From positions 141,624 to 205,623 of IMG/VR virus record IMGVR_UViG_3300033067_001661: a stretch of DNA of 64,000 nucleotides. One strand, given 5' to 3'. The notes under the pieces were generated by a model. It made no database searches. It had not been told where the DNA came from and worked only from the letters and a program-made list of their open reading frames with translations. Of this stretch, positions 56,389-64,000 are shown piece by piece (position 1 is the first letter of the stretch; each line of letters opens with the position of its first letter). The position numbers and the translations under genes were made by a program. Source of the DNA: a virus (lineage: Duplodnaviria; Heunggongvirae; Uroviricota; Caudoviricetes).

Positions 56389-56847
56389 TTACTCCATAAG
56401 TATGTACAGCGGGTTTTCAGGCCCATAAGATGTCAACTCGTATATCTCGTCAATCTTCGACTGCGAAATTAGAGACGTACAATCAATGATAACTGCTTGA
56501 TATCCAGAGACTCCCATAAGTCTTTCAAGACAGTTCGGCGAGCAAACTACAACTTTATCTTTTAGCTCTGGACTAAGTTTTAAGAATCTCGCTGCAAGAG
56601 TCATATTCGGAAGGACAAGTATAACCTTATCAAACCTATCTTCTATAATCTGCATGATTGCAGACGTATGACCAGCGCCTCTGTAAGAACAAAGTTTAAT
56701 AGTTGAGTATTCTTTTGCTCGTTTTATTCTTGGCAGAAAATCCAAAACATTACCAAGTTCTTTTTGTCGTTCCCTTGCCATATCAACAAGAGTAAGAAGA
56801 CAAGTATACAATTTACCGCCACGATATCCGGTATTTACCATTTCCAT
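56389..56847 (-). CDS. Small degenerate P-loop NTPase-like protein
   Basis: 152 aa; YRGAGHTS (Walker A-like with K replaced by H), VILVLPN, YQAVIIDC (Walker B-like). Confidence 0.5.
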   Translation of the reverse strand: MEMVNTGYRGGKLYTCLLTLVDMARERQKELGNVLDFLPRIKRAKEYSTIKLCSYRGAGHTSAIMQIIEDRFDKVILVLPNMTLAARFLKLSPELKDKVVVCSPNCLERLMGVSGYQAVIIDCTSLISQSKIDEIYELTSYGPENPLYILME

Positions 56848-56931
56848 AGGAACATCTCCCTTCCAGCCAAATATAAAAAGGAATATGTTCCTTACATTTG
56901 GTATATGATATTATCGACAAGGAGAAACAAA

Positions 56932-57489
56932 ATGATAGGACAAAGATTTGGAAGACTTGTTGTTGGAGAAAAAACAGAAATACGATTACAAGGCAAAAGT
57001 AAACACAAAACCCTATATCACCACTGTATATGTGATTGCGGCAAAGATCTTTTTGTAAGAAAACAAAGCCTGAAAGGAGGAAACACAAAAAGCTGTGGAT
57101 GCTATAAAAACGAACATTCAAAACTAATAGGAAGAAAAAACAGAAAAGGGAAATATACAGGTAAAGCAACAATAAACTATTTACTTAGAAAATACAAATA
57201 TAACGCTTCAAAAAGAAAAATTACATTTGATCTCTGTATGGAAGATTTTAACAAGATAATAAAAGAAAATTGCTACTACTGCGATAAAGAACCATCGCAA
57301 AAAATAGAACTTAGCTCACAGAAACTGTATTACAATGGCGTTGATAGAATAGACAGTTCAAAAGGATATATTAAAAGCAATTGCGTGCCTTGCTGTAAAA
57401 TGTGTAATATAGCAAAAAGTTCTTATTCTTTATCTGAGTTTAAGGAATGGATTTCTAAAGTATACAACAAACACTGTAAACGGGGCTGA
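56932..57489 (+). CDS. Free-standing HNH-type homing endonuclease, opposite strand
   Basis: Start reassigned to ATG 56932 after AAGGAG; MIGQRFGRLVV..CICDCG..TKSCGC N-terminus; CYYC..NGVDRIDSSKGYIKSNCVPCCKMCNIAK nuclease domain; AT-rich; the only credible plus-strand gene. Confidence 0.88.
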   Translation: MIGQRFGRLVVGEKTEIRLQGKSKHKTLYHHCICDCGKDLFVRKQSLKGGNTKSCGCYKNEHSKLIGRKNRKGKYTGKATINYLLRKYKYNASKRKITFDLCMEDFNKIIKENCYYCDKEPSQKIELSSQKLYYNGVDRIDSSKGYIKSNCVPCCKMCNIAKSSYSLSEFKEWISKVYNKHCKRG

Positions 57490-57509: not shown

Positions 57510-58415
57510 TTATGTTAGTTGAGGGTCAGACCAGCCATGCCTTGTCTGAACTTCCATCTCTTCTCCGAACCATGTTATGCTTGCCGCATGAAGAAGAGTC
57601 CCCTTGTACTTAAACCCATAGTTGATATCGCTAGGCCAAGAGTTGTATATAAACCTAGTCAACTTAATAACCTTCGTTTGCTCGTCAACAGCATAAGGGA
57701 AGTGAGGATTAGGAAAAACTTGCAAAGTTGTTGAATCTGGAATCGAAGCAACCCTCAACTCTTCTGCTTGATAAATGTTCTCTATCACTATCTTGTCTTC
57801 GCATACAAATTTCGAGGAATCAGCAACCTTGATAAACTCGTCTTCTGCATTTACGTCTGCAATCAAATTGCTTGTATCATAAGCGCCAATAAGAGGAAAG
57901 ATATTCTTCTTCAAACCTAACTGAATGATATTTGCAAGCTGCATAACCGTTCTATAAGAAGATTCATGGTTATCATTCTCTGCATAAATAGCTATCTGAA
58001 GATTGTATCTCTCTTTTGTTGTACCAAGAGTAAACCATTCAGACGTTCTATTTTGACCAAGTATGGTTATGGCTGGATAACGAGGAATAACGTCAGGCTC
58101 GCCTATGTAGATAGCCTGAACAAACTGTCCGTCATACGTCTTCGTTATCATTGCATTTGCCGAGACTCTCCAACCAGTTATAACCTTGATTGGCGACTCA
58201 AGAATGATTGTATTCCTATCTGGAATTTCCGCAATCCTCAAGCCAGGCTCGCCATTAACGCCGTCATGCAAAGCAACTTCGTCACCAACTCGAAAGCGTA
58301 TAGCAGAGTTGACTTTTATAGTCGTCGTATTGTAGGGAGCGTCCTCCGTAAGGGTCGCGCTCGTGTTGACCCAACGGTAAATTGTTCTTCTTACGCTCTC
58401 TAGAATTTCAATCAT
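57510..58415 (-). CDS. Tail terminator/completion-like protein with two inserted beta-barrel modules
   Basis: Core YIGEPDVIPRYPAITI..ERYNLQIAIY..VMQLANIIQLGL..INYG..LHAASITW resembles gpU/gp17-type terminators; position between adaptor and tube. Confidence 0.65.
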   Translation of the reverse strand: MIEILESVRRTIYRWVNTSATLTEDAPYNTTTIKVNSAIRFRVGDEVALHDGVNGEPGLRIAEIPDRNTIILESPIKVITGWRVSANAMITKTYDGQFVQAIYIGEPDVIPRYPAITILGQNRTSEWFTLGTTKERYNLQIAIYAENDNHESSYRTVMQLANIIQLGLKKNIFPLIGAYDTSNLIADVNAEDEFIKVADSSKFVCEDKIVIENIYQAEELRVASIPDSTTLQVFPNPHFPYAVDEQTKVIKLTRFIYNSWPSDINYGFKYKGTLLHAASITWFGEEMEVQTRHGWSDPQLT

Positions 58416-58681
58416 TAGAAGTTCCTATCCAAAAGATCGTCTAGTAAGTTTTTAGCAATGTTATCAACAGCTTTGTTGACATTGTTATTATCAATCTCGC
58501 TTGTCTTCATATAGTCTTCGTATTCAGCCCTATTTATTGCGTCCTCTTTTGTCTTGCTTATTTTTGATTCATTAGGCAAGCCAATATCGGTAACAAGTTT
58601 TGTATTTTCAATTTGAGAAGAAAGTTGCTCTATGCTTTTTATTAACTGATCAAATGTAACTTCTTTTTCAGACTCGCTCAT
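58415..58681 (-). CDS. Small acidic hypothetical protein
   Basis: 88 aa; start and stop overlap both neighbours (ATGA, TAATG). Confidence 0.65.
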   Translation of the reverse strand: MSESEKEVTFDQLIKSIEQLSSQIENTKLVTDIGLPNESKISKTKEDAINRAEYEDYMKTSEIDNNNVNKAVDNIAKNLLDDLLDRNF

Positions 58682-59403
58682 CTATCGCCTCCCTTCATCT
58701 CTCGGTCGCTGCCTTCTATAGGAGGCAAGCCATATCTGTCTCTAAGATTAGGATTGAAGAAGCGATGACCTATTCTCTTTTGACCATGAAGAATAGTTAC
58801 GCCTTGGAGAATATCATTTAGCCCTGATAAAGCCCAGCCTCTCAATGTTTTACCATAATCTGAAACATTAGGGCTTGATTGAGAAGCAAAATACTTATCA
58901 TAGATACTAGCGGCAGCTAATCTTGCGCAAGCCAAATTGATAGCAGCAGGATATCTTACTCGAACAACCCTTGCTGTCTCGGCATGGTAAATACCAAGCA
59001 AAGGCTCCTGAAGCTCAATGGTTGTTGTATTGACAACGCTCGAAACAGTATGCCTCTCTTCTCCTAAAGCGTCAATGAATATCAAGGTATCGCCAGGATT
59101 TAGAGGAGAGGTTTTGTTGAGTTCGATTGTATCGTTATAAGCGTCTATATCAACAAGAAGAGAAAGCTCCAAATCAACCTTTTCGCACAAAGGAGTTAGA
59201 TAGAGTTCGCTAATGGCTGCATCTATCTGATCTCCTGCCCATGTAATGTATTGATACACAACATCATCTGGAATCGAGTTATTACTCTTATTCTTACCAA
59301 AAGTCCAAAGAGGAACCGGCTGACCATTCGCAACAGAATTCGTTGCAGAAGTTAAGGCCTGTGCTAGTATGTCATATACCTGTTGTGTAGTTGCATATCC
59401 CAT
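58678..59403 (-). CDS. Head-tail adaptor, Mu gp36/DUF1320-like, with an inserted beta-barrel module
   Basis: MGYATTQQV start, YITWAGDQIDAAISELYLTPL, PAAINLACARLAAASIY, ALSGLNDILQG. Confidence 0.75.
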   Translation of the reverse strand: MGYATTQQVYDILAQALTSATNSVANGQPVPLWTFGKNKSNNSIPDDVVYQYITWAGDQIDAAISELYLTPLCEKVDLELSLLVDIDAYNDTIELNKTSPLNPGDTLIFIDALGEERHTVSSVVNTTTIELQEPLLGIYHAETARVVRVRYPAAINLACARLAAASIYDKYFASQSSPNVSDYGKTLRGWALSGLNDILQGVTILHGQKRIGHRFFNPNLRDRYGLPPIEGSDREMKGGDR

Positions 59404-59416
59404 TTATCTTTCCTGT

Positions 59417-60484
59417 TTACGATAGTATCTTATCTAAAGGATCTTGGGAAGCTGCTTGCATTTCCTTCTTCTGCGTAATAATCGCCTGCGTCAACAAACC
59501 TTCTGCAACCGCATTTCTTGGACTCTTAGCGTGTCTTACTTCCTTAATCTGGAAAGGCAAGTTCATCCCTCTTACTATTTTCTCTAATTTCTGGCAAAAA
59601 CCCTTTGGCATACTTGTACCACCAGCAATAACAATATCAAGAGGCTGACTGAACTTGCTTTTAGACTCTTGGAACTTCTTTCCGAACAATCCAAAAACAT
59701 GCTCGATCATGGCGTCATAATAAGCATCAAGAGCAAAAGAAACGTCGTCGTTTTCGTCTAGCTTGTTGAAATCAAGCTTCTTTTCCTTAGTAGAAATGAC
59801 CTGAGAAAGAGGAACGCCCGTCTGCTCAGAAACTTGCTTATCAATCCAATCACCGCTTCGGGCAACAGACATTCCAACAACAGGCAATCCCTTATACGCC
59901 AAAAGACAGTTAACTCTACCCGCTCCAAAGCTTACGCCAATGCCTGAATAAGGAACAACCGTTCCGTCTTCTTCGGTCATAGTCGGTCTTTCGCTCAAAA
60001 CAACAGCATGAGCCTCTTCGATAACCTTTACCTTCCATCCAAGCCTTGTGAACAAAGCCGTCAAACGATTCTTGTGAAAAGTTGAATCAACGGAAGTATC
60101 AACAGACTCAGAACTAACGCATATACAAACCCATGAGTTAGAGTCAGGAGCCTGCCCAATAGAAGCCTTGATTATCTCAGCAAGAACAACAAGCTTCTTG
60201 TCTTCATTCTTGTTCAAAACTCCGTCAGCCATAGGCCTTCGTATTTCAACTTTGCCCGGGAATATGTTAGCGACCTTAATACAGTCGTCTCCAACTACAT
60301 AATAGTTATCGCCGTCTCTTACATATTGCCAACCATTGCTCTTAAGAGTATCTTCAATATCATCGTTCTTGGGAAGCTCAACAAAGGCATTCCTTGTATT
60401 TCTGACTTTGATAGCGCCGTCCGCCATTTCAGCCACTTGAAAAAACATCGTTCCTGGGTCAACTCCAATTGCTTTACTCGACAT
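59417..60484 (-). CDS. Actin-fold ATPase, volactin-like
   Basis: 355 aa; phosphate-1 IGVDPGT, RRPMADGVL, connect-1 IEEAHAV, phosphate-2 GVSFGAG, SVARSGDWID, adenosine IAGGTS, connect-2 PRNAVAEG; AAAGGAG SD. Confidence 0.88.
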   Translation of the reverse strand: MSSKAIGVDPGTMFFQVAEMADGAIKVRNTRNAFVELPKNDDIEDTLKSNGWQYVRDGDNYYVVGDDCIKVANIFPGKVEIRRPMADGVLNKNEDKKLVVLAEIIKASIGQAPDSNSWVCICVSSESVDTSVDSTFHKNRLTALFTRLGWKVKVIEEAHAVVLSERPTMTEEDGTVVPYSGIGVSFGAGRVNCLLAYKGLPVVGMSVARSGDWIDKQVSEQTGVPLSQVISTKEKKLDFNKLDENDDVSFALDAYYDAMIEHVFGLFGKKFQESKSKFSQPLDIVIAGGTSMPKGFCQKLEKIVRGMNLPFQIKEVRHAKSPRNAVAEGLLTQAIITQKKEMQAASQDPLDKILS

Positions 60485-60499
60485 CTCTGTTCTCCTTTA

Positions 60500-61066
60500 T
60501 TACAGCAATCCTTCTAATTCCTGTATGTTCTTCGTAACATCTTTATCGGTTGTTTGTTCTTCATGCTTTACCTTAGATTCAGCGTTACCAGCCAATCGGT
60601 TAACCATCCTCTTTTGTATGTCAACAAGCTTGCCCTGGTCAACGTCTTTAGCTTCTTGAGACTGAGCTTGCGGTTGCGAGTTTCCAACAATTGCCGTCAA
60701 ATTCTGAAGCGCAGCAAGAGCCTGGTTAAGAGCGTTTACATCAACGGCTGGTTGTGAATGAGATACCTTTTCATCAATCCTCTTGGTTAGCTTCTCTTCA
60801 AGCTGTTTTATCGAGTTGATAACATCCATTGAAGAGTTTTGCTGAGGTTGATCCGCCGCAGCAGCGGGCTGCATATTGATAGCCCCTGAATCTTTATTCA
60901 AACAAAGTAGAGATTTTGAAGAAAACAAAGACCTAAGACTTCTAGCTTGTTCAATGTAGAATCTAGAAGAAATCATATCTAAATCTATCGTATGTCCAGG
61001 CGAAAGAGTAACTCTTAACTCTGGTATATCAACATCATGTTTTGTAATGTTCTTTACAACAAACAT
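60500..61066 (-). CDS. Hypothetical protein: small N-terminal globular domain, Gln/Ala-rich coiled coil, amphipathic C-terminal helix; putative partner of the actin-like protein
   Basis: 188 aa; MFVVKNITKHDVDIPELRVTLSPGHTIDL N-terminus; INSIKQLEEKLTKRIDE coiled coil; ends DVTKNIQELEGLL; 15 nt from the actin gene. Confidence 0.7.
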   Translation of the reverse strand: MFVVKNITKHDVDIPELRVTLSPGHTIDLDMISSRFYIEQARSLRSLFSSKSLLCLNKDSGAINMQPAAAADQPQQNSSMDVINSIKQLEEKLTKRIDEKVSHSQPAVDVNALNQALAALQNLTAIVGNSQPQAQSQEAKDVDQGKLVDIQKRMVNRLAGNAESKVKHEEQTTDKDVTKNIQELEGLL

Positions 61067-61067
61067 A

Positions 61068-61289
61068 TTACATCCTTCTTGTTTTTGGATAAGCCGATGG
61101 CATCTGCTTAGAAAAATCCATTTCGTTCATCTTTTTACATGATTGACAAAGCCAATAAACCTTGGAATCTCCAAAGTTAAACTCTATAGTTGGATTCCTC
61201 TCATGATGCCTGCAATGTCCGCAAACGGCCATCATTCTACAAGAAATATCTTCAGGCTTAGAAAGATCCCATGCTTTGCTGTCTTCCAT
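61068..61289 (-). CDS. Small Zn-ribbon protein
   Basis: 73 aa with CGHC and CQSC; GGAG upstream; 1 nt from the next gene. Confidence 0.7.
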   Translation of the reverse strand: MEDSKAWDLSKPEDISCRMMAVCGHCRHHERNPTIEFNFGDSKVYWLCQSCKKMNEMDFSKQMPSAYPKTRRM

Positions 61290-64000
61290 TTATTGCTCCA
61301 GCGATTATTGCGTCTAACACACTTGTATCGACATTGAACTTTGCAAACTTTCCTCTCAACGATACAAGATTTGCAACTCTTCTATTTTGAGCGATCTTCT
61401 GCATCATTCTAATTCTAGAAGCAATCTTACCGGCAGCGCCTGCGTCTAGAAGCTCAGCGAAGAACAAGGCGTCTCTAGCAACAAGGCGAGAAGGACCATA
61501 CGGCCTCTTACCCTTTGGATCGATTGCCTCTTCTTGAGGAGTCTCTCTAAGCATGCTCTTAACTAACTCGTCAACCTTAACTTGAGGCTTGTTATGAACA
61601 AGAGTTTTCTTTACAAGACCCCTATTATAAGCATCTCTAAGATCTGGGAAATATCTCTCAGCAATCTGGAACAGCCTTCTGTCTGGCATCTCTTTTATAG
61701 AGTTTGAAATCTGACCGGGAGTGATACCGATATGCTTCAAGAACTGATCCTTAGATTCAAGCTTATTTCTTGCCAAGAAAGCAGGATTATCCATAGATTG
61801 CTCTATGTACCTTTCAAGATAGACTCTCAAAGCTTCAAGCTCTCTGCTTTGATCGACGTAATACTTCTTGTACTCGCTCTTATCAAATTCATCTATAACT
61901 CTCTTCTTAGAATCTCTAGGAAGCTTTGCAAAGTCAGCCTTACCCTTTACGTTGTTCAAGCCAGCGGCTGCTGCAAACTGAGCAACATATTCGTCTTTGA
62001 TAAATGAACCTGGATCGCTAAATTTCTTTTCTATATCCGTTGGAGTTGAGTACATTGTTTCAAGTATATCTCTTACCTTATCAAAGGTTGCAGTGATTTC
62101 TTGAGGAGTCATTGCCTCAATCTCTTCCTCAGTCTTACCAAGATCAACGCCTCTTCGAGCAAGCTGAGTAAGATAGTTCATCTTGTCGTCAAAAGAACCT
62201 CTGTTCGTCTTTGCCAAAAGAGAACCAACCGCTGCTGTCTCTGGGAAGAAACCTATAACCTCAACAAACGAAACCATTGTATCGTTGCCGTACTTATTGA
62301 TAAGCTCGGGATCTAACAATACGTCTCTAAGGCTTTCAAGATCTCCATAAGCCTTTTGTTTTATAATGTTTCTTGTGTTATTTACTTGATTATAAGCTGG
62401 ATCTTTTCTACTACCAACTTGCATGTTAGGAGGATAATCAACAGCACTCGACGTTAGTATTTCGTCATACGCTTGGCGAGGGTCTGCAAATAACTTATCT
62501 GCAACAGCCTTTTGAACTATACCAGCTACGTCAGGATTATCAAGAGCAAATGAGTTATCTGCAAGATGTTCAAGTTTGAATAGTTCGCTCCAGTCTTGAT
62601 TTAGAATGTTGATCATTCTTTCATCAGTAAGGTTGTTTATGCCTCTATTAGCTGCTTCAACAGTTTGGGCAACAGACTTCCTGCATGACTCTTGTATTCT
62701 AGACCAAAGAAGCATTTTACGAAGAGCATTAACCTTTTGATCTCTTGTTTCCTTTGTCAAAGGCGTTCTCTGATAAAACTGAGCAAGCTTACCATTTACG
62801 TCTGTAATAAACGAACTGAGCTTATTCCAGTTGTTTTGCAAACTCTGTAGCTTATCAAGTTCAACCGTATCACCCTTCTGAACTGGCAAGCCCTCAGGCT
62901 GCAAGCCCTCTTCTTTGAAGACGCTTTCTCCAAGTTCAAGACGGAAATCAGTTTTGAAATCTCTATCTGGGGTAATAGCGAATGGGTCTTTTTCGTTAGT
63001 TGAACCAGCGTCAGCGGCCCATTGCATTTCTTGAGACTTATCTGATTGCGCCGAACGAACAGCCTCTTGCAATACCCAATCAAAGAACTTATAGTGCAGA
63101 GGATTATCTTTGTCCGAAATAACACTCTTAAGTTCTTGAACGAGAGGTTCAAAATGCCTATGAACAACATTCATGGCATTTGCGTCATATCCGCTCTTGC
63201 CAACATTTCCAAGTATTTCATTCTCACCAGGATCAAGATCCGGACCAATACTATCAAGCATGGACTGTCTAGCATAAGGTTCTAAAAAGAATGACAAAAA
63301 CAACTCTTTGTTATTGGCATCGGCGCTGAAAAGCTTATCCTTGATGAATCCAATTGAATCAGAGTCAGCAAGAAGTTTGCTATTCACAAATGATTTAGAC
63401 TTATCTCCCCTACCCAAACGAGATTGCAAAATCAAATCCCTATCTCTAGAAGACAAAGGCTCGCCAAGGAGCATCTTGTATCTAATGAGACTTTCTTTGT
63501 CATTTCCGCCAAGATAGCTTTTCAAGAACAAGTTCTTGAGTTCTTCTCTTGAAGCGTCGTCAATACCGCTTGAAATAGTAGAACCAGTAAACTCTTCTTG
63601 AACCTCCTTAAGCAATGCAAGGTTATGATCGTTATGAGTAAACTGAGGCATCTGAGCAATAGTATCAAAAACCCTATTCGTCTTACCTTTACCCTCTTGC
63701 AAAGCTCTGTTTCGCTGAAACAAAGCGACAACTTGAGCCTTTGTTAGGTCTGGGTATTTTTGCTCTTGAGGAGTTTGAGCAACGTCCTCTTCGCCTGAAA
63801 GACTCTTCCTCTTTGACTCTTCAAACTTGTCTTTGAATATCTTCTCAAACAAAGTCAGAGCCTCTTGCTTTCTCCCTATTTCCTCGTCCGTCAAAGGCCT
63901 TCTATCAGGGCCAATTTCCGTTTCTGCTTCTTCGTCAACAAACGAGAGAAACATATCGAAAATCTGATCTGGAGTAATAGGGTTATAACTGGTATAGCCA
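61258..64000 (-). CDS. Large acidic alpha-helical hypothetical protein, 5' end beyond the window
   Basis: The 898-aa ORF stays open upstream of 63954 to the window edge (GYTSYNPITPDQIFDMFLSF...); no recognisable motif. Confidence 0.75.
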   Translation of the reverse strand, partial: GYTSYNPITPDQIFDMFLSFVDEEAETEIGPDRRPLTDEEIGRKQEALTLFEKIFKDKFEESKRKSLSGEEDVAQTPQEQKYPDLTKAQVVALFQRNRALQEGKGKTNRVFDTIAQMPQFTHNDHNLALLKEVQEEFTGSTISSGIDDASREELKNLFLKSYLGGNDKESLIRYKMLLGEPLSSRDRDLILQSRLGRGDKSKSFVNSKLLADSDSIGFIKDKLFSADANNKELFLSFFLEPYARQSMLDSIGPDLDPGENEILGNVGKSGYDANAMNVVHRHFEPLVQELKSVISDKDNPLHYKFFDWVLQEAVRSAQSDKSQEMQWAADAGSTNEKDPFAITPDRDFKTDFRLELGESVFKEEGLQPEGLPVQKGDTVELDKLQSLQNNWNKLSSFITDVNGKLAQFYQRTPLTKETRDQKVNALRKMLLWSRIQESCRKSVAQTVEAANRGINNLTDERMINILNQDWSELFKLEHLADNSFALDNPDVAGIVQKAVADKLFADPRQAYDEILTSSAVDYPPNMQVGSRKDPAYNQVNNTRNIIKQKAYGDLESLRDVLLDPELINKYGNDTMVSFVEVIGFFPETAAVGSLLAKTNRGSFDDKMNYLTQLARRGVDLGKTEEEIEAMTPQEITATFDKVRDILETMYSTPTDIEKKFSDPGSFIKDEYVAQFAAAAGLNNVKGKADFAKLPRDSKKRVIDEFDKSEYKKYYVDQSRELEALRVYLERYIEQSMDNPAFLARNKLESKDQFLKHIGITPGQISNSIKEMPDRRLFQIAERYFPDLRDAYNRGLVKKTLVHNKPQVKVDELVKSMLRETPQEEAIDPKGKRPYGPSRLVARDALFFAELLDAGAAGKIASRIRMMQKIAQNRRVANLVSLRGKFAKFNVDTSVLDAIIAGAINGRQQSMGSF

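What the first reader, a model, noticed from the sequence alone, without database searches (positions are those of the whole stretch)
59417..61289. Phage-encoded volactin-like actin module (Zn ribbon + coiled-coil adaptor + actin) coupled to the neck genes
Seen: three tightly spaced genes (gaps 1 and 15 nt) lie 13 nt upstream of the head-tail adaptor, and the 355-aa protein keeps all actin-fold motifs. Knowledge, from my recollection of the family: RNAFVE, YVVGDD, ANIF, RRPM..G.L, G.SFGAG, SVAR.GDWID and GGTS match the volactin family (Haloferax volcanii cell-shape actin) better than MreB, ParM or FtsA; Ser replaces the usual phosphate-2 Asp. The best-characterised jumbo-phage cytoskeleton is tubulin (PhuZ). 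Inference: this is a late-expressed actin filament system for moving or positioning capsids or phage DNA, or for reshaping the host, with the 188-aa protein as adaptor. This is the best candidate here for an undescribed system.
Basis: partly seen in the sequence, partly recalled or inferred. Interest (0 to 1): 0.85.

Follow-up and report, generated by a model that had tools for sequence, protein, structure and literature searches.

The report
Huge-phage volactin actin with adaptor
A giant uncultured phage carries, among its virion-assembly genes, a true actin of the "volactin" family plus a small two-ended partner protein. The same gene pair occurs in Planctomycetota bacteria, so these phages probably build their own actin filaments, which no paper I could search describes.

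Summary
Three tightly packed minus-strand genes lie 13 nt upstream of a Mu gp36-like head-tail adaptor gene: a Zn ribbon (73 aa), a 188-aa partner and a 355-aa actin.

The 355-aa protein is a full-length member of Pfam Volactin (219 bits, cut-off 35). It falls below the MreB, MamK and BeeR cut-offs. Its model is a confident actin fold (pLDDT 96) whose nearest solved structures are filament formers.

A survey seeded with a different gene (p301) found the actin in 40 of 40 related huge-phage loci. It is the slowest-evolving gene of the block. The partner lies upstream in 39 of 40 loci.

New here: the partner's N-terminal domain is homologous to a protein encoded directly upstream of one volactin paralogue in Planctomycetota. 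The pair is therefore a shared two-gene module, not a phage invention.

Docking of the partner's invariant C-terminal tail on the actin received only weak computational support. Polymerisation, cargo and timing are untested.

This scan has already reported phage volactins on other DNA (83 notes, at least 69 genomes). I found no paper describing them. Verdict: a real, conserved, undescribed phage actin system, and a new variant of known phage cytoskeletal systems.

The parts
59417..60484 (-). 355-aa volactin-family actin (act355)
   Evidence: Pfam PF25216: 219.1 bits against a cut-off of 35, full length. AF2 model: pLDDT 96.3, pTM 0.93. Top folds are MreB, MamK, BeeR and actin. It sits in a 100*-supported phage clade in the tree.
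60449..60460 (-). Phosphate-1 motif D9-P-G-T12 of the actin
   Evidence: D9 is invariant and G11 and T12 are at least 90% conserved in the 74-sequence family alignment.
59909..59944 (-). Phosphate-2 motif G181-I-G-V-S185-F-G-A-G-R-V-N192 (family-typical Ser in place of Asp)
   Evidence: G187 and G189 are invariant; S185 and N192 are at least 90% conserved. Relatives carry inteins inside this motif.
59612..59623 (-). Adenosine motif G288-G-T-S291
   Evidence: G288 and G289 are invariant and T290 is at least 90% conserved.
60500..61066 (-). 188-aa partner (cc188): head, variable coiled coil, C-terminal tail
   Evidence: 18 homologues, all metagenomic. It lies upstream of the actin in 39 of 40 clade loci. 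AF2 model: N-domain pLDDT about 90, then helices and disorder.
60896..61066 (-). Partner N-terminal domain (residues 1-57, starts M-F-V-V-K-N)
   Evidence: Homologous to the gene upstream of planctomycete volactin: BLASTP E 1e-6; hhalign probability 90.5%, E 1.3e-6. N6, D28, L29, D30, R35 and K58 are invariant across 21 phage and planctomycete sequences.
60503..60547 (-). Partner C-terminal tail (residues 174-188, ends E-L-E-G-L-L)
   Evidence: E183, L184, E185, L187 and L188 are invariant in 13 homologues. A [DE]-E-L-[ED]-x-[LM]-[LIF] ending is kept at 24-32% overall identity. Docking on the actin: ipSAE 0.32 against a best control of 0.00, weak support.
61068..61289 (-). 73-aa Zn-ribbon protein (zn73)
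   Evidence: C23, C26, C48 and C51 are invariant, with a basic P-K-T-R-R end, in 13 homologues. tblastn detects it in 30 of 40 clade loci. It was not seen beside the planctomycete module.
58678..59403 (-). 241-aa Mu gp36-like head-tail adaptor candidate (context)
   Evidence: 10 of 10 family members hit Pfam Phage_Mu_Gp36, best E 4.3e-5, all below the cut-off. It directly follows the actin in 38 of 40 loci.
57510..58415 (-). 301-aa conserved neighbour used as the unbiased survey seed (context; function unknown)
   Evidence: No Pfam, PHROG or PDB sequence hit. Conserved in 40 loci.
61258..64000 (-). 3' part of the ~1023-aa upstream gene (context; fast-evolving, function unknown)
   Evidence: It starts outside the window. 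It is only 25-50% identical where the actin is 79-85%. No family hit.

Best explanation
The 355-aa protein is a nucleotide-binding actin of the volactin family. It most likely polymerises into filaments in the infected cell. The 188-aa protein upstream is its dedicated two-ended adaptor: a conserved roughly 57-residue head, a variable coiled-coil spacer, and an invariant acidic-hydrophobic C-terminal tail that probably docks on the actin in the way ParR docks on ParM. The actin-adaptor pair is an old two-gene module shared with Planctomycetota, from which this huge-phage clade probably took it. In the phages it became a core gene pair, fixed between a large upstream gene plus a phage-only Zn-ribbon gene and the head-tail adaptor, neck and tail genes. 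It is therefore most likely made together with virion parts and organises a late step, such as positioning particles or DNA at assembly or packaging. Shown: family membership, fold, conservation, synteny, and homology of the adaptor head to the planctomycete protein. Inferred: polymerisation, tail docking, late timing and the cargo.
For: Family:
- Pfam Volactin scores 219 bits against a cut-off of 35 over the full length.
- MreB, MamK and BeeR models score far below their cut-offs.
- A maximum-likelihood tree separates the family from true MreB of the same bacterial genomes by a 100* branch.

Fold:
- The model has pLDDT 96.3.
- The best Foldseek matches are the filament formers MreB, MamK, BeeR and actin.
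- The family profile finds MamK at 6e-16, then BeeR, MreB and FtsA among PDB sequences.
- The founding member, VolA, forms dynamic filaments in vivo (PMC10869688).

Constraint:
- The nucleotide-binding motifs are intact.
- dN is 0.10, against 0.13-0.52 for the neighbouring genes; dN/dS is 0.05-0.10.
- The actin is present in 40 of 40 loci found with a different seed gene. It stays 52-85% identical where that seed is 31-46% identical.
- Relatives carry inteins in the ATP-binding core, and LAGLIDADG genes sit beside the actin gene. Such elements usually target conserved genes.

Adaptor:
- It lies upstream of the actin in 39 of 40 loci, with a conserved head and tail and a variable middle.
- Its head is homologous to the planctomycete gene directly upstream of volactin: BLASTP E 1e-6; hhalign 90.5%, E 1.3e-6.
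- In 151 sampled Planctomycetota the partner profile hit 14 genomes. Twelve hits lie directly upstream of a volactin and two are at contig ends.
- Tail docking: ipSAE 0.32 against a best control of 0.00. That mark was reached by 58 of 80 solved complexes and 2 of 110 mismatched pairs. At 0.60 or under, only 7 of those 80 solved complexes passed, as did both mismatches, so the support is weak. The runs agree in at least 83% of contacts, and the partner's pLDDT is at least 67.

Context:
- The next gene is a Mu gp36-like adaptor.
- Downstream are a PHROG minor tail protein and a tape measure protein.
- There are no promoter or terminator signals above chance within the block.
Against: - No experiment or expression data exist for any phage member.
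- Polymerisation is inferred from family and fold only.
- Docking support is weak, and the adaptor head was not tested against the actin.
- The head is conserved between phage and bacterium. This is odd for a cargo-binding domain unless the cargo is common to both (membrane, DNA or the filament itself).
- The head has no recognisable fold or family.
- I could not locate the major capsid protein, portal or terminase in the held 334 kb (66% complete). 'Neck-coupled' therefore rests on a sub-threshold Mu gp36 match plus the downstream tail genes.
- A position among structural genes fits a packaged virion protein equally well.
Confidence: 0.6

Rival explanations
1. Virion-packaged or injected protein. 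The actin, perhaps with the partner and the large fast-evolving upstream protein, is loaded into the capsid or neck. It is delivered with the DNA and acts at the start of the next infection.
For: The gene sits inside the head-tail and tail gene block with no transcription signals of its own. The upstream ~1023-aa protein evolves fast, as internal or ejected proteins often do: 25-50% identity where the actin is 79-85%. That last reading is my inference.
Against: No known phage packages an actin-like protein (my knowledge). The same actin-adaptor pair exists in Planctomycetota chromosomes with no virion context. Very strong conservation of the ATP-binding motifs points to a working NTPase cycle rather than a passive structural role.
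Confidence: 0.12
2. ParMRC- or AlpAC-like DNA positioning. The filaments push or place phage genomes (replication sites, or plasmid-like maintenance), with the partner as a DNA-binding adaptor.
For: The layout, with a small adaptor gene immediately upstream of an actin and a C-terminal docking tail, mirrors ParR/ParM and AlpA/AlpC (PMC4446434, PMC5539076). Some volactin-family proteins are fused to a ParB HTH domain (P0065, P0089, P0132).
Against: There is no iteron or centromere-like array, and no non-coding space, near the genes. No DNA-binding family was found in the partner. The genes sit among virion genes, not among replication genes.
Confidence: 0.12
3. Host take-over by mimicry. The phage copies of a host actin-adaptor module interfere with, or co-opt, the host's own volactin system, for example to change cell shape or membrane organisation. 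They do not carry phage cargo.
For: The nearest cellular relatives of both the actin (38-39% identity) and the adaptor head are planctomycete. Volactin scores over the cut-off in 65 of 151 sampled Planctomycetota. VolA acts in cell-shape change (PMC10869688).
Against: At 38% identity, co-polymerisation with a host actin is doubtful (inference). The phage tail motif (E-L-E-G-L-L) differs from the planctomycete one (A-D-L-L-G-G-I-D). The host of this phage is unknown. Fixed placement next to neck genes in 38 of 40 loci is not explained.
Confidence: 0.1
4. A non-polymerising ASKHA-fold ATPase that acts as an assembly chaperone or enzyme for neck or tail parts.
For: The actin fold is shared with Hsp70 and sugar kinases. 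The usual phosphate-2 Asp is Ser. The gene lies between assembly genes.
Against: The Ser is the family norm, and the family's founding member polymerises (PMC10869688). The best structural and profile matches are all filament formers, with no Hsp70 or kinase among the 50 Foldseek rows listed.
Confidence: 0.06

Closest known systems
Volactin (VolA, HVO_2015) of Haloferax volcanii; Pfam PF25216 (PMC10869688)
   Same: Same Pfam family, matched over the full length at 219 bits. Same actin fold. The family-typical S-F-G-A-G phosphate-2 motif is present. VolA forms dynamic filaments that span the cytoplasm.
   Different: Encoded by a huge phage inside virion-assembly genes. Paired with a coiled-coil adaptor and a Zn-ribbon gene. 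The nearest cellular relatives are planctomycete, not archaeal. I could not compare it with the VolA sequence itself. The role in cell shape is not transferable.
Planctomycete partner + volactin gene pair (e.g. L032:3095-3916 and L032:3995-5089), uncharacterised
   Same: Same gene order, with the adaptor directly upstream of the actin. The adaptor head is homologous. The tail is acidic and ends in Leu-Leu. The actins group together in the tree.
   Different: Chromosomal, followed by an LPG-synthase-like membrane protein or a TPR protein. The adaptor is longer (about 190-280 aa). There is no Zn-ribbon gene. The actins are only 36-39% identical to the phage actin.
ParMRC plasmid partition and AlpAC of prophage CGP3 (PMC4446434, PMC5539076)
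   Same: An actin-like NTPase with a small adaptor gene just upstream. The adaptor is expected to hold the filament through a terminal peptide. AlpC is a precedent for a phage-borne actin.
   Different: A different actin family. No centromere repeats and no recognisable DNA-binding domain here. It lies in a virion module of a lytic-type huge phage, not in a maintenance or replication module.
PhuZ tubulin spindle of nucleus-forming jumbo phages (PMC8314001, PMC9067925)
   Same: A phage-encoded cytoskeletal polymer in very large phages, used there to position the replication compartment and deliver capsids. This is the functional analogy proposed here.
   Different: Tubulin fold versus actin fold. 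No tubulin was found in the held 334 kb. No link to a phage nucleus is known.
MamK, with its adaptors MamJ and McaA/B, in magnetotactic bacteria
   Same: The closest solved relative by sequence profile (6e-16). An actin filament that positions large cargo through acidic or coiled-coil adaptors.
   Different: The NCBIfam MamK model scores 27.6 bits against a cut-off of 400, so this is not a MamK. The cargo and the partners are unrelated.

Membership tests
Volactin (Pfam PF25216) | Scores over the curated Pfam cut-off along the whole profile | tested here: met
   219.1 bits against a cut-off of 35, profile positions 2-321 of 321. 218.9 bits in the genome search. Among 14 control genomes, the model exceeds the cut-off in one only; Haloferax volcanii is among the four where it rings.
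Volactin (Pfam PF25216) | Groups with family members and apart from MreB in a tree | tested here: met
   IQ-TREE with 84 rows: the 80 volactin-like rows are split from 4 true MreB by a 100* branch of length 3.22.
Volactin (Pfam PF25216) | Actin (ASKHA) fold with intact phosphate-1, phosphate-2 and adenosine motifs | tested here: met
   pLDDT 96.3. Foldseek finds MreB, MamK, BeeR and actin at E 1e-13 to 1e-16. D9, G187, G189, G288 and G289 are invariant, and S185 is the family norm.
Volactin (Pfam PF25216) | Dynamic polymerisation into filaments (shown for VolA in vivo) | not testable with these tools
   Needs purified protein or live imaging. My one complex job went to the partner's tail.
Volactin (Pfam PF25216) | Direct similarity to the H. 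volcanii VolA sequence | not tested
Membership rests on the Pfam model.
MreB | Scores over the Pfam MreB_Mbl and NCBIfam MreB cut-offs | tested here: not met
   Pfam: 23.6 bits against 27. NCBIfam PRK13927: 21.4 against 293. Genomes with volactin also hold a true MreB at 443-497 bits.
MamK | Scores over the NCBIfam MamK cut-off | tested here: not met
   27.6 bits against 400.
BeeR | Scores over the NCBIfam BeeR cut-off | tested here: not met
   19.6 bits against 530.
ParMRC / AlpAC-type partition system | The adaptor's terminal peptide binds the actin | tested here: inconclusive
   ipSAE 0.32 against a best control of 0.00: weak support. The mark was reached by 58 of 80 solved complexes and 2 of 110 mismatches. 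At 0.60 or under, it was reached by only 7 of those 80 solved complexes and by both mismatches.
ParMRC / AlpAC-type partition system | The adaptor has a DNA-binding domain (RHH or HTH) | tested here: inconclusive
   No Pfam, PHROG or NCBIfam hit. The fold searches were filled by the helical part and barely tested the head.
ParMRC / AlpAC-type partition system | A centromere-like repeat array beside the operon | tested here: not met
   Only chance-level short repeats, no tandem arrays, and gene gaps of 1-15 nt.
PhuZ-type phage tubulin cytoskeleton | Tubulin/FtsZ-fold polymer | tested here: not met
   The protein has an actin fold. There is no Pfam Tubulin match in the 334-kb record, which is only 66% complete.

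The most novel reading that the evidence does not exclude
A clade of huge phages (contigs up to about 550 kb) captured a two-gene actin-plus-adaptor module from Planctomycetota-like hosts. The phages made it a core part of virion morphogenesis. It would be an actin-based line for assembly, transport or positioning of capsids or DNA: the actin counterpart of the PhuZ tubulin spindle, with a phage-only Zn-ribbon protein as a third component.
Probability: 0.35. Interest if true: 0.85.

Novelty: new variant of a known kind. Interest (0 to 1): 0.72.

Why it matters
The only well-studied cytoskeleton built by large lytic phages is tubulin (PhuZ). Known phage-borne actins (AlpC, ParM-like) belong to prophage or plasmid maintenance.

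Here an actin of a different family is a universal and the most conserved gene of the virion-assembly block in a whole clade of huge phages. It comes with a dedicated adaptor that also exists next to volactin in Planctomycetota. This gives three things:
- a directly testable candidate for actin-driven organisation of phage assembly;
- a first partner protein for the bacterial branch of the poorly understood volactin family;
- a clue to the hosts of these uncultured phages.

A 2026 review of jumbo-phage biology does not contain the word actin. The only held paper that contains both 'volactin' and 'phage' is a Haloferax volcanii motility and cell-shape paper; I did not read its one 'phage' passage.

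Tried and rejected
- Fold of the partner. The AF2 model has mean pLDDT 69, about 90 in the head. Foldseek against the PDB gave nothing at E <= 0.001. VIA-align wide matched only generic long helices, Z up to 5.0, over residues 75-131. The head alone remains barely tested.
- Sequence profiles of the 241-aa and 301-aa neighbours against PDB sequences gave nothing meaningful.
- PHROGs gave no family for the actin, the partner, the adaptor candidate or the 301-aa protein, and only one unknown-function family for the Zn ribbon, at E 0.001.
- I looked for the capsid and terminase to fix the module's place in the head genes. Pfam Phage_capsid (HK97) and Terminase_6N gave no match in the held record. 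The genes upstream of the ~1023-aa gene are PhoH and unknowns. The record is 66% complete, so this is not evidence of absence.
- I rejected the idea that the 355-aa gene is the major capsid protein because it sits where a capsid gene would be, after a coiled-coil 'scaffold-like' gene and before the adaptor. The fold is a confident actin fold.
- The promoter and terminator scan gave counts no higher than in shuffled sequence.
- A first genome-contig query with the 74-sequence alignment failed for lack of a conserved stretch. I repeated it with 11 sequences. Its single search pattern may miss many lineages, including Archaea.
- The cultured-phage collection holds only two uncultured records with a distant homologue at 29-31% identity, and no isolate.
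- The plus-strand ORF 56764-57489 looked HNH-like by eye but had no Pfam hit.
Full report
WHAT IS THERE

The window is part of a single 333,623-bp IMG/VR virus record (linear; CheckV completeness 66%). Almost all genes in the window lie on the minus strand.

At the reported coordinates there are three ORFs:
- a 73-aa Zn-ribbon protein (61068-61289);
- a 188-aa protein (60500-61066);
- a 355-aa protein (59417-60484).

A 241-aa gene follows (58678-59403). The gaps are 1, 15 and 13 nt, and ribosome-binding sites sit in front of the last three genes. The Zn-ribbon ORF overlaps by 32 nt the end of a large upstream gene. That gene starts outside the window and is about 1023 aa.

THE ACTIN

The 355-aa protein matches Pfam Volactin (PF25216) over the whole profile: E 1.4e-64, 219 bits against a cut-off of 35. 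MreB_Mbl reaches only 23.6 bits, below its cut-off of 27. The NCBIfam models for MamK, MreB and BeeR score 27.6, 21.4 and 19.6 bits against cut-offs of 400, 293 and 530.

An AlphaFold2 model built on a 74-sequence alignment is very confident (pLDDT 96.3, pTM 0.93). Its best Foldseek matches in the PDB are MreB, MamK, BeeR and eukaryotic actin. The family profile finds MamK (6e-16), BeeR, MreB and FtsA among PDB sequences. All of these form filaments.

In the family alignment D9, G187, G189, G288 and G289 are invariant. The founding member, VolA of Haloferax volcanii, forms dynamic filaments in vivo (PMC10869688).

An exhaustive HMMER search of 1.84 billion cluster representatives found 829 relatives at E <= 0.001 and 220 at E <= 1e-30.

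CONSERVATION IN PHAGES

A search of IMG/VR with the actin gave 25 loci on contigs up to 498 kb. In 21 of them the neighbourhood around the actin is kept, in this order: large gene, Zn ribbon, partner, actin, 241-aa gene, 301-aa gene, glycosyltransferase, 352-aa gene. tblastn misses the large gene in the more distant loci, and the partner or the Zn ribbon in a few.

To avoid circularity I repeated the survey with the 301-aa neighbour as seed:
- All 40 loci found carry the actin (contigs up to 548 kb).
- In 38 of them the actin lies directly before the 241-aa gene.
- The actin stays 52-85% identical in 39 of them (one outlier at 38%) where the seed gene has fallen to 31-46% and the 241-aa gene to 37-48%.

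Against three relatives, dN is 0.10-0.13 for the actin, 0.13-0.19 for the 301-aa gene, 0.21-0.26 for the 241-aa gene, 0.21-0.23 for the Zn ribbon and 0.35-0.52 for the partner. dN/dS for the actin is 0.05-0.10. The actin is therefore a core gene, and the slowest-evolving one, in this block.

In a maximum-likelihood tree of 84 rows with an MreB outgroup, the window's protein lies in a 100*-supported clade of 14 viral sequences. Four other viral volactins fall elsewhere, so phages acquired the family several times.

THE PARTNER

The 188-aa protein has 18 homologues, all from metagenomes. Alignments show three parts:
- a strongly conserved head (residues 1-60, starting M-F-V-V-K-N);
- a variable, partly coiled-coil middle;
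- an invariant C-terminal end (E-L-E-G-L-L-COOH).

In the 40-locus survey, an ORF of 172-203 aa with this head and a [DE]-E-L-[ED]-x-[LM]-[LIF] ending lies upstream of the actin in 39 loci. The remaining locus looks frameshifted. The AF2 model gives a confident small alpha/beta head (pLDDT about 90), then helices separated by disorder, and a last short helix at residues 177-185.

A complex prediction of the actin with residues 140-188 of the partner gave ipSAE 0.32 against a best control of 0.00. This is weak support. The mark was reached by 58 of 80 solved complexes and 2 of 110 mismatched pairs. At 0.60 or under, however, it was reached by only 7 of those 80 solved complexes and by both mismatches. 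The runs agree in at least 83% of contacts, and the partner's pLDDT is at least 67. Docking is plausible but not shown.

A CELLULAR COUNTERPART

A scan of species-representative genomes found the nearest cellular actins in Planctomycetota (36-39% identity), followed by Acidobacteriota and a few Pseudomonadota (30-34%). The scan's single search pattern limits what it can find.

In the planctomycete loci the gene directly upstream of the actin encodes a 190-280-aa protein that starts M-W-I-V-K-N and ends in an acidic Leu-Leu tail. Its head is homologous to the phage partner's head: BLASTP E 1e-6; hhalign probability 90.5%, E 1.3e-6 over residues 1-61. Six positions are invariant across 21 phage and planctomycete sequences.

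In 151 sampled Planctomycetota:
- Volactin scores over the cut-off in 65 genomes.
- The partner profile hits 14 genomes. Twelve hits lie directly upstream of a volactin and two are at contig ends.

In the tree, the phage clade and the planctomycete clade share a group (support 93) that is separate from the Acidobacteriota clade. These genomes also hold a true MreB. The actin-adaptor pair is therefore an older two-gene module, and the Zn-ribbon gene is a phage-side addition. The four Cys of the Zn ribbon are invariant. I did not see it in the planctomycete loci.

CONTEXT

All 10 members of the 241-aa family hit Pfam Phage_Mu_Gp36 (best E 4.3e-5, all below the cut-off).

Further downstream lie a glycosyltransferase, a PHROG 'minor tail protein' (E 4.8e-13) and a 1243-aa tape measure protein.

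I could not find the capsid, terminase or tubulin genes with the Pfam models I tried, and the record is incomplete. There are no repeats or non-coding space for a centromere near the genes, and no promoter or terminator signal above chance.

READING

The best-supported explanation is a filament-forming phage actin that works with a two-ended adaptor and is made together with virion parts (confidence 0.6). The rivals are:
- a packaged or injected protein (0.12);
- ParMRC-like DNA positioning (0.12). ParB-HTH fusions elsewhere in the family are a hint;
- interference with a host volactin system (0.10);
- a non-polymerising ATPase (0.06).

The conservation of the adaptor head between bacteria and phages suggests that it binds something common to both: the filament itself, membrane, or DNA.

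NOVELTY

Phage-borne actins are known from prophage CGP3 (AlpC/AlpA: PMC4446434, PMC5539076), and jumbo-phage cytoskeletons are known from PhuZ tubulin. I found no paper on volactin-type actins in phages:
- One held paper contains both 'volactin' and 'phage'. It is a Haloferax volcanii motility and cell-shape study, and I did not read its single 'phage' passage.
- A 2026 review of jumbo-phage biology never uses the words actin, MreB or ParM.

This scan has already reported phage volactins on other DNA (83 notes in at least 69 genomes). I used those notes as leads only. One of them called the partner phage-only. Here the partner's head has planctomycete homologues.

Noticed in passing
Relatives P0019, P0021, P0022 (55-59% identical to the window's actin) and about 14 further representatives; equivalent window positions about 59906-59932 and 59852-59860: Volactin-family genes carry inteins (Pfam Intein_splicing plus LAGLIDADG_3) at three sites, all in the nucleotide-binding core: inside the phosphate-2 motif (G-I-S | C-G-A-G), just after G-A-G-M-x-N-C, and before G-D-W-I-D. 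The window's own gene has no intein. I know of no report of inteins in actin-family proteins.
   Followed up: partly
L001:434-1246 and L003:5175-6002 (between partner and actin); the window gap 60485-60499 is the empty site: The nearest relative (actin 95% identical) and several others hold a free-standing LAGLIDADG_2 endonuclease gene (E 2e-19 and 9e-22) inserted between the partner and the actin. Its first 5-8 codons duplicate the start of the actin gene (M-S-S-K-A-I-G-V in L001; M-A-N-S-R in L003). The window lacks the insert, so this is a presence/absence polymorphism of a homing element.
   Followed up: partly
Representatives P0065, P0089, P0132, P0090, P0027: Other volactin-family proteins are fused to an N-terminal ParB HTH domain, or to a C-terminal Wzz/GNVR/ParA-like tyrosine-kinase module, or occur as tandem double actins. 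This hints at DNA-linked and envelope-linked roles in the family.
   Followed up: no
Planctomycetota genomes G003-G154; e.g. L032:3095-6268: Volactin scores over the Pfam cut-off in 65 of 151 sampled Planctomycetota, often in 2-4 copies. One paralogue type is paired with the adaptor and is followed by an LPG_synthase_TM membrane protein or a TPR protein. The family is thus common in bacteria, not mainly archaeal.
   Followed up: partly
window 61258-64000 and beyond (L026:3-953): The ~1023-aa gene upstream of the trio has no family match. It evolves much faster than its neighbours: 25-50% identity where the actin is 79-85%. It directly follows a PhoH-like gene (L026:1053-1826).
   Followed up: partly
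window 56764-57489 (+): This is the only sizeable plus-strand ORF in the block. It is Cys-rich and looks HNH-endonuclease-like by eye, lying between the 301-aa gene and the next minus-strand gene. It had no Pfam hit at E <= 0.01, so it remains unverified.
   Followed up: partly
whole record G000 (333,623 bp): Pfam Phage_capsid (HK97), Terminase_6N and Tubulin gave no match in the held record. Most proteins of the structural block have no PHROG family. The clade is very distant from described phages.
   Followed up: partly
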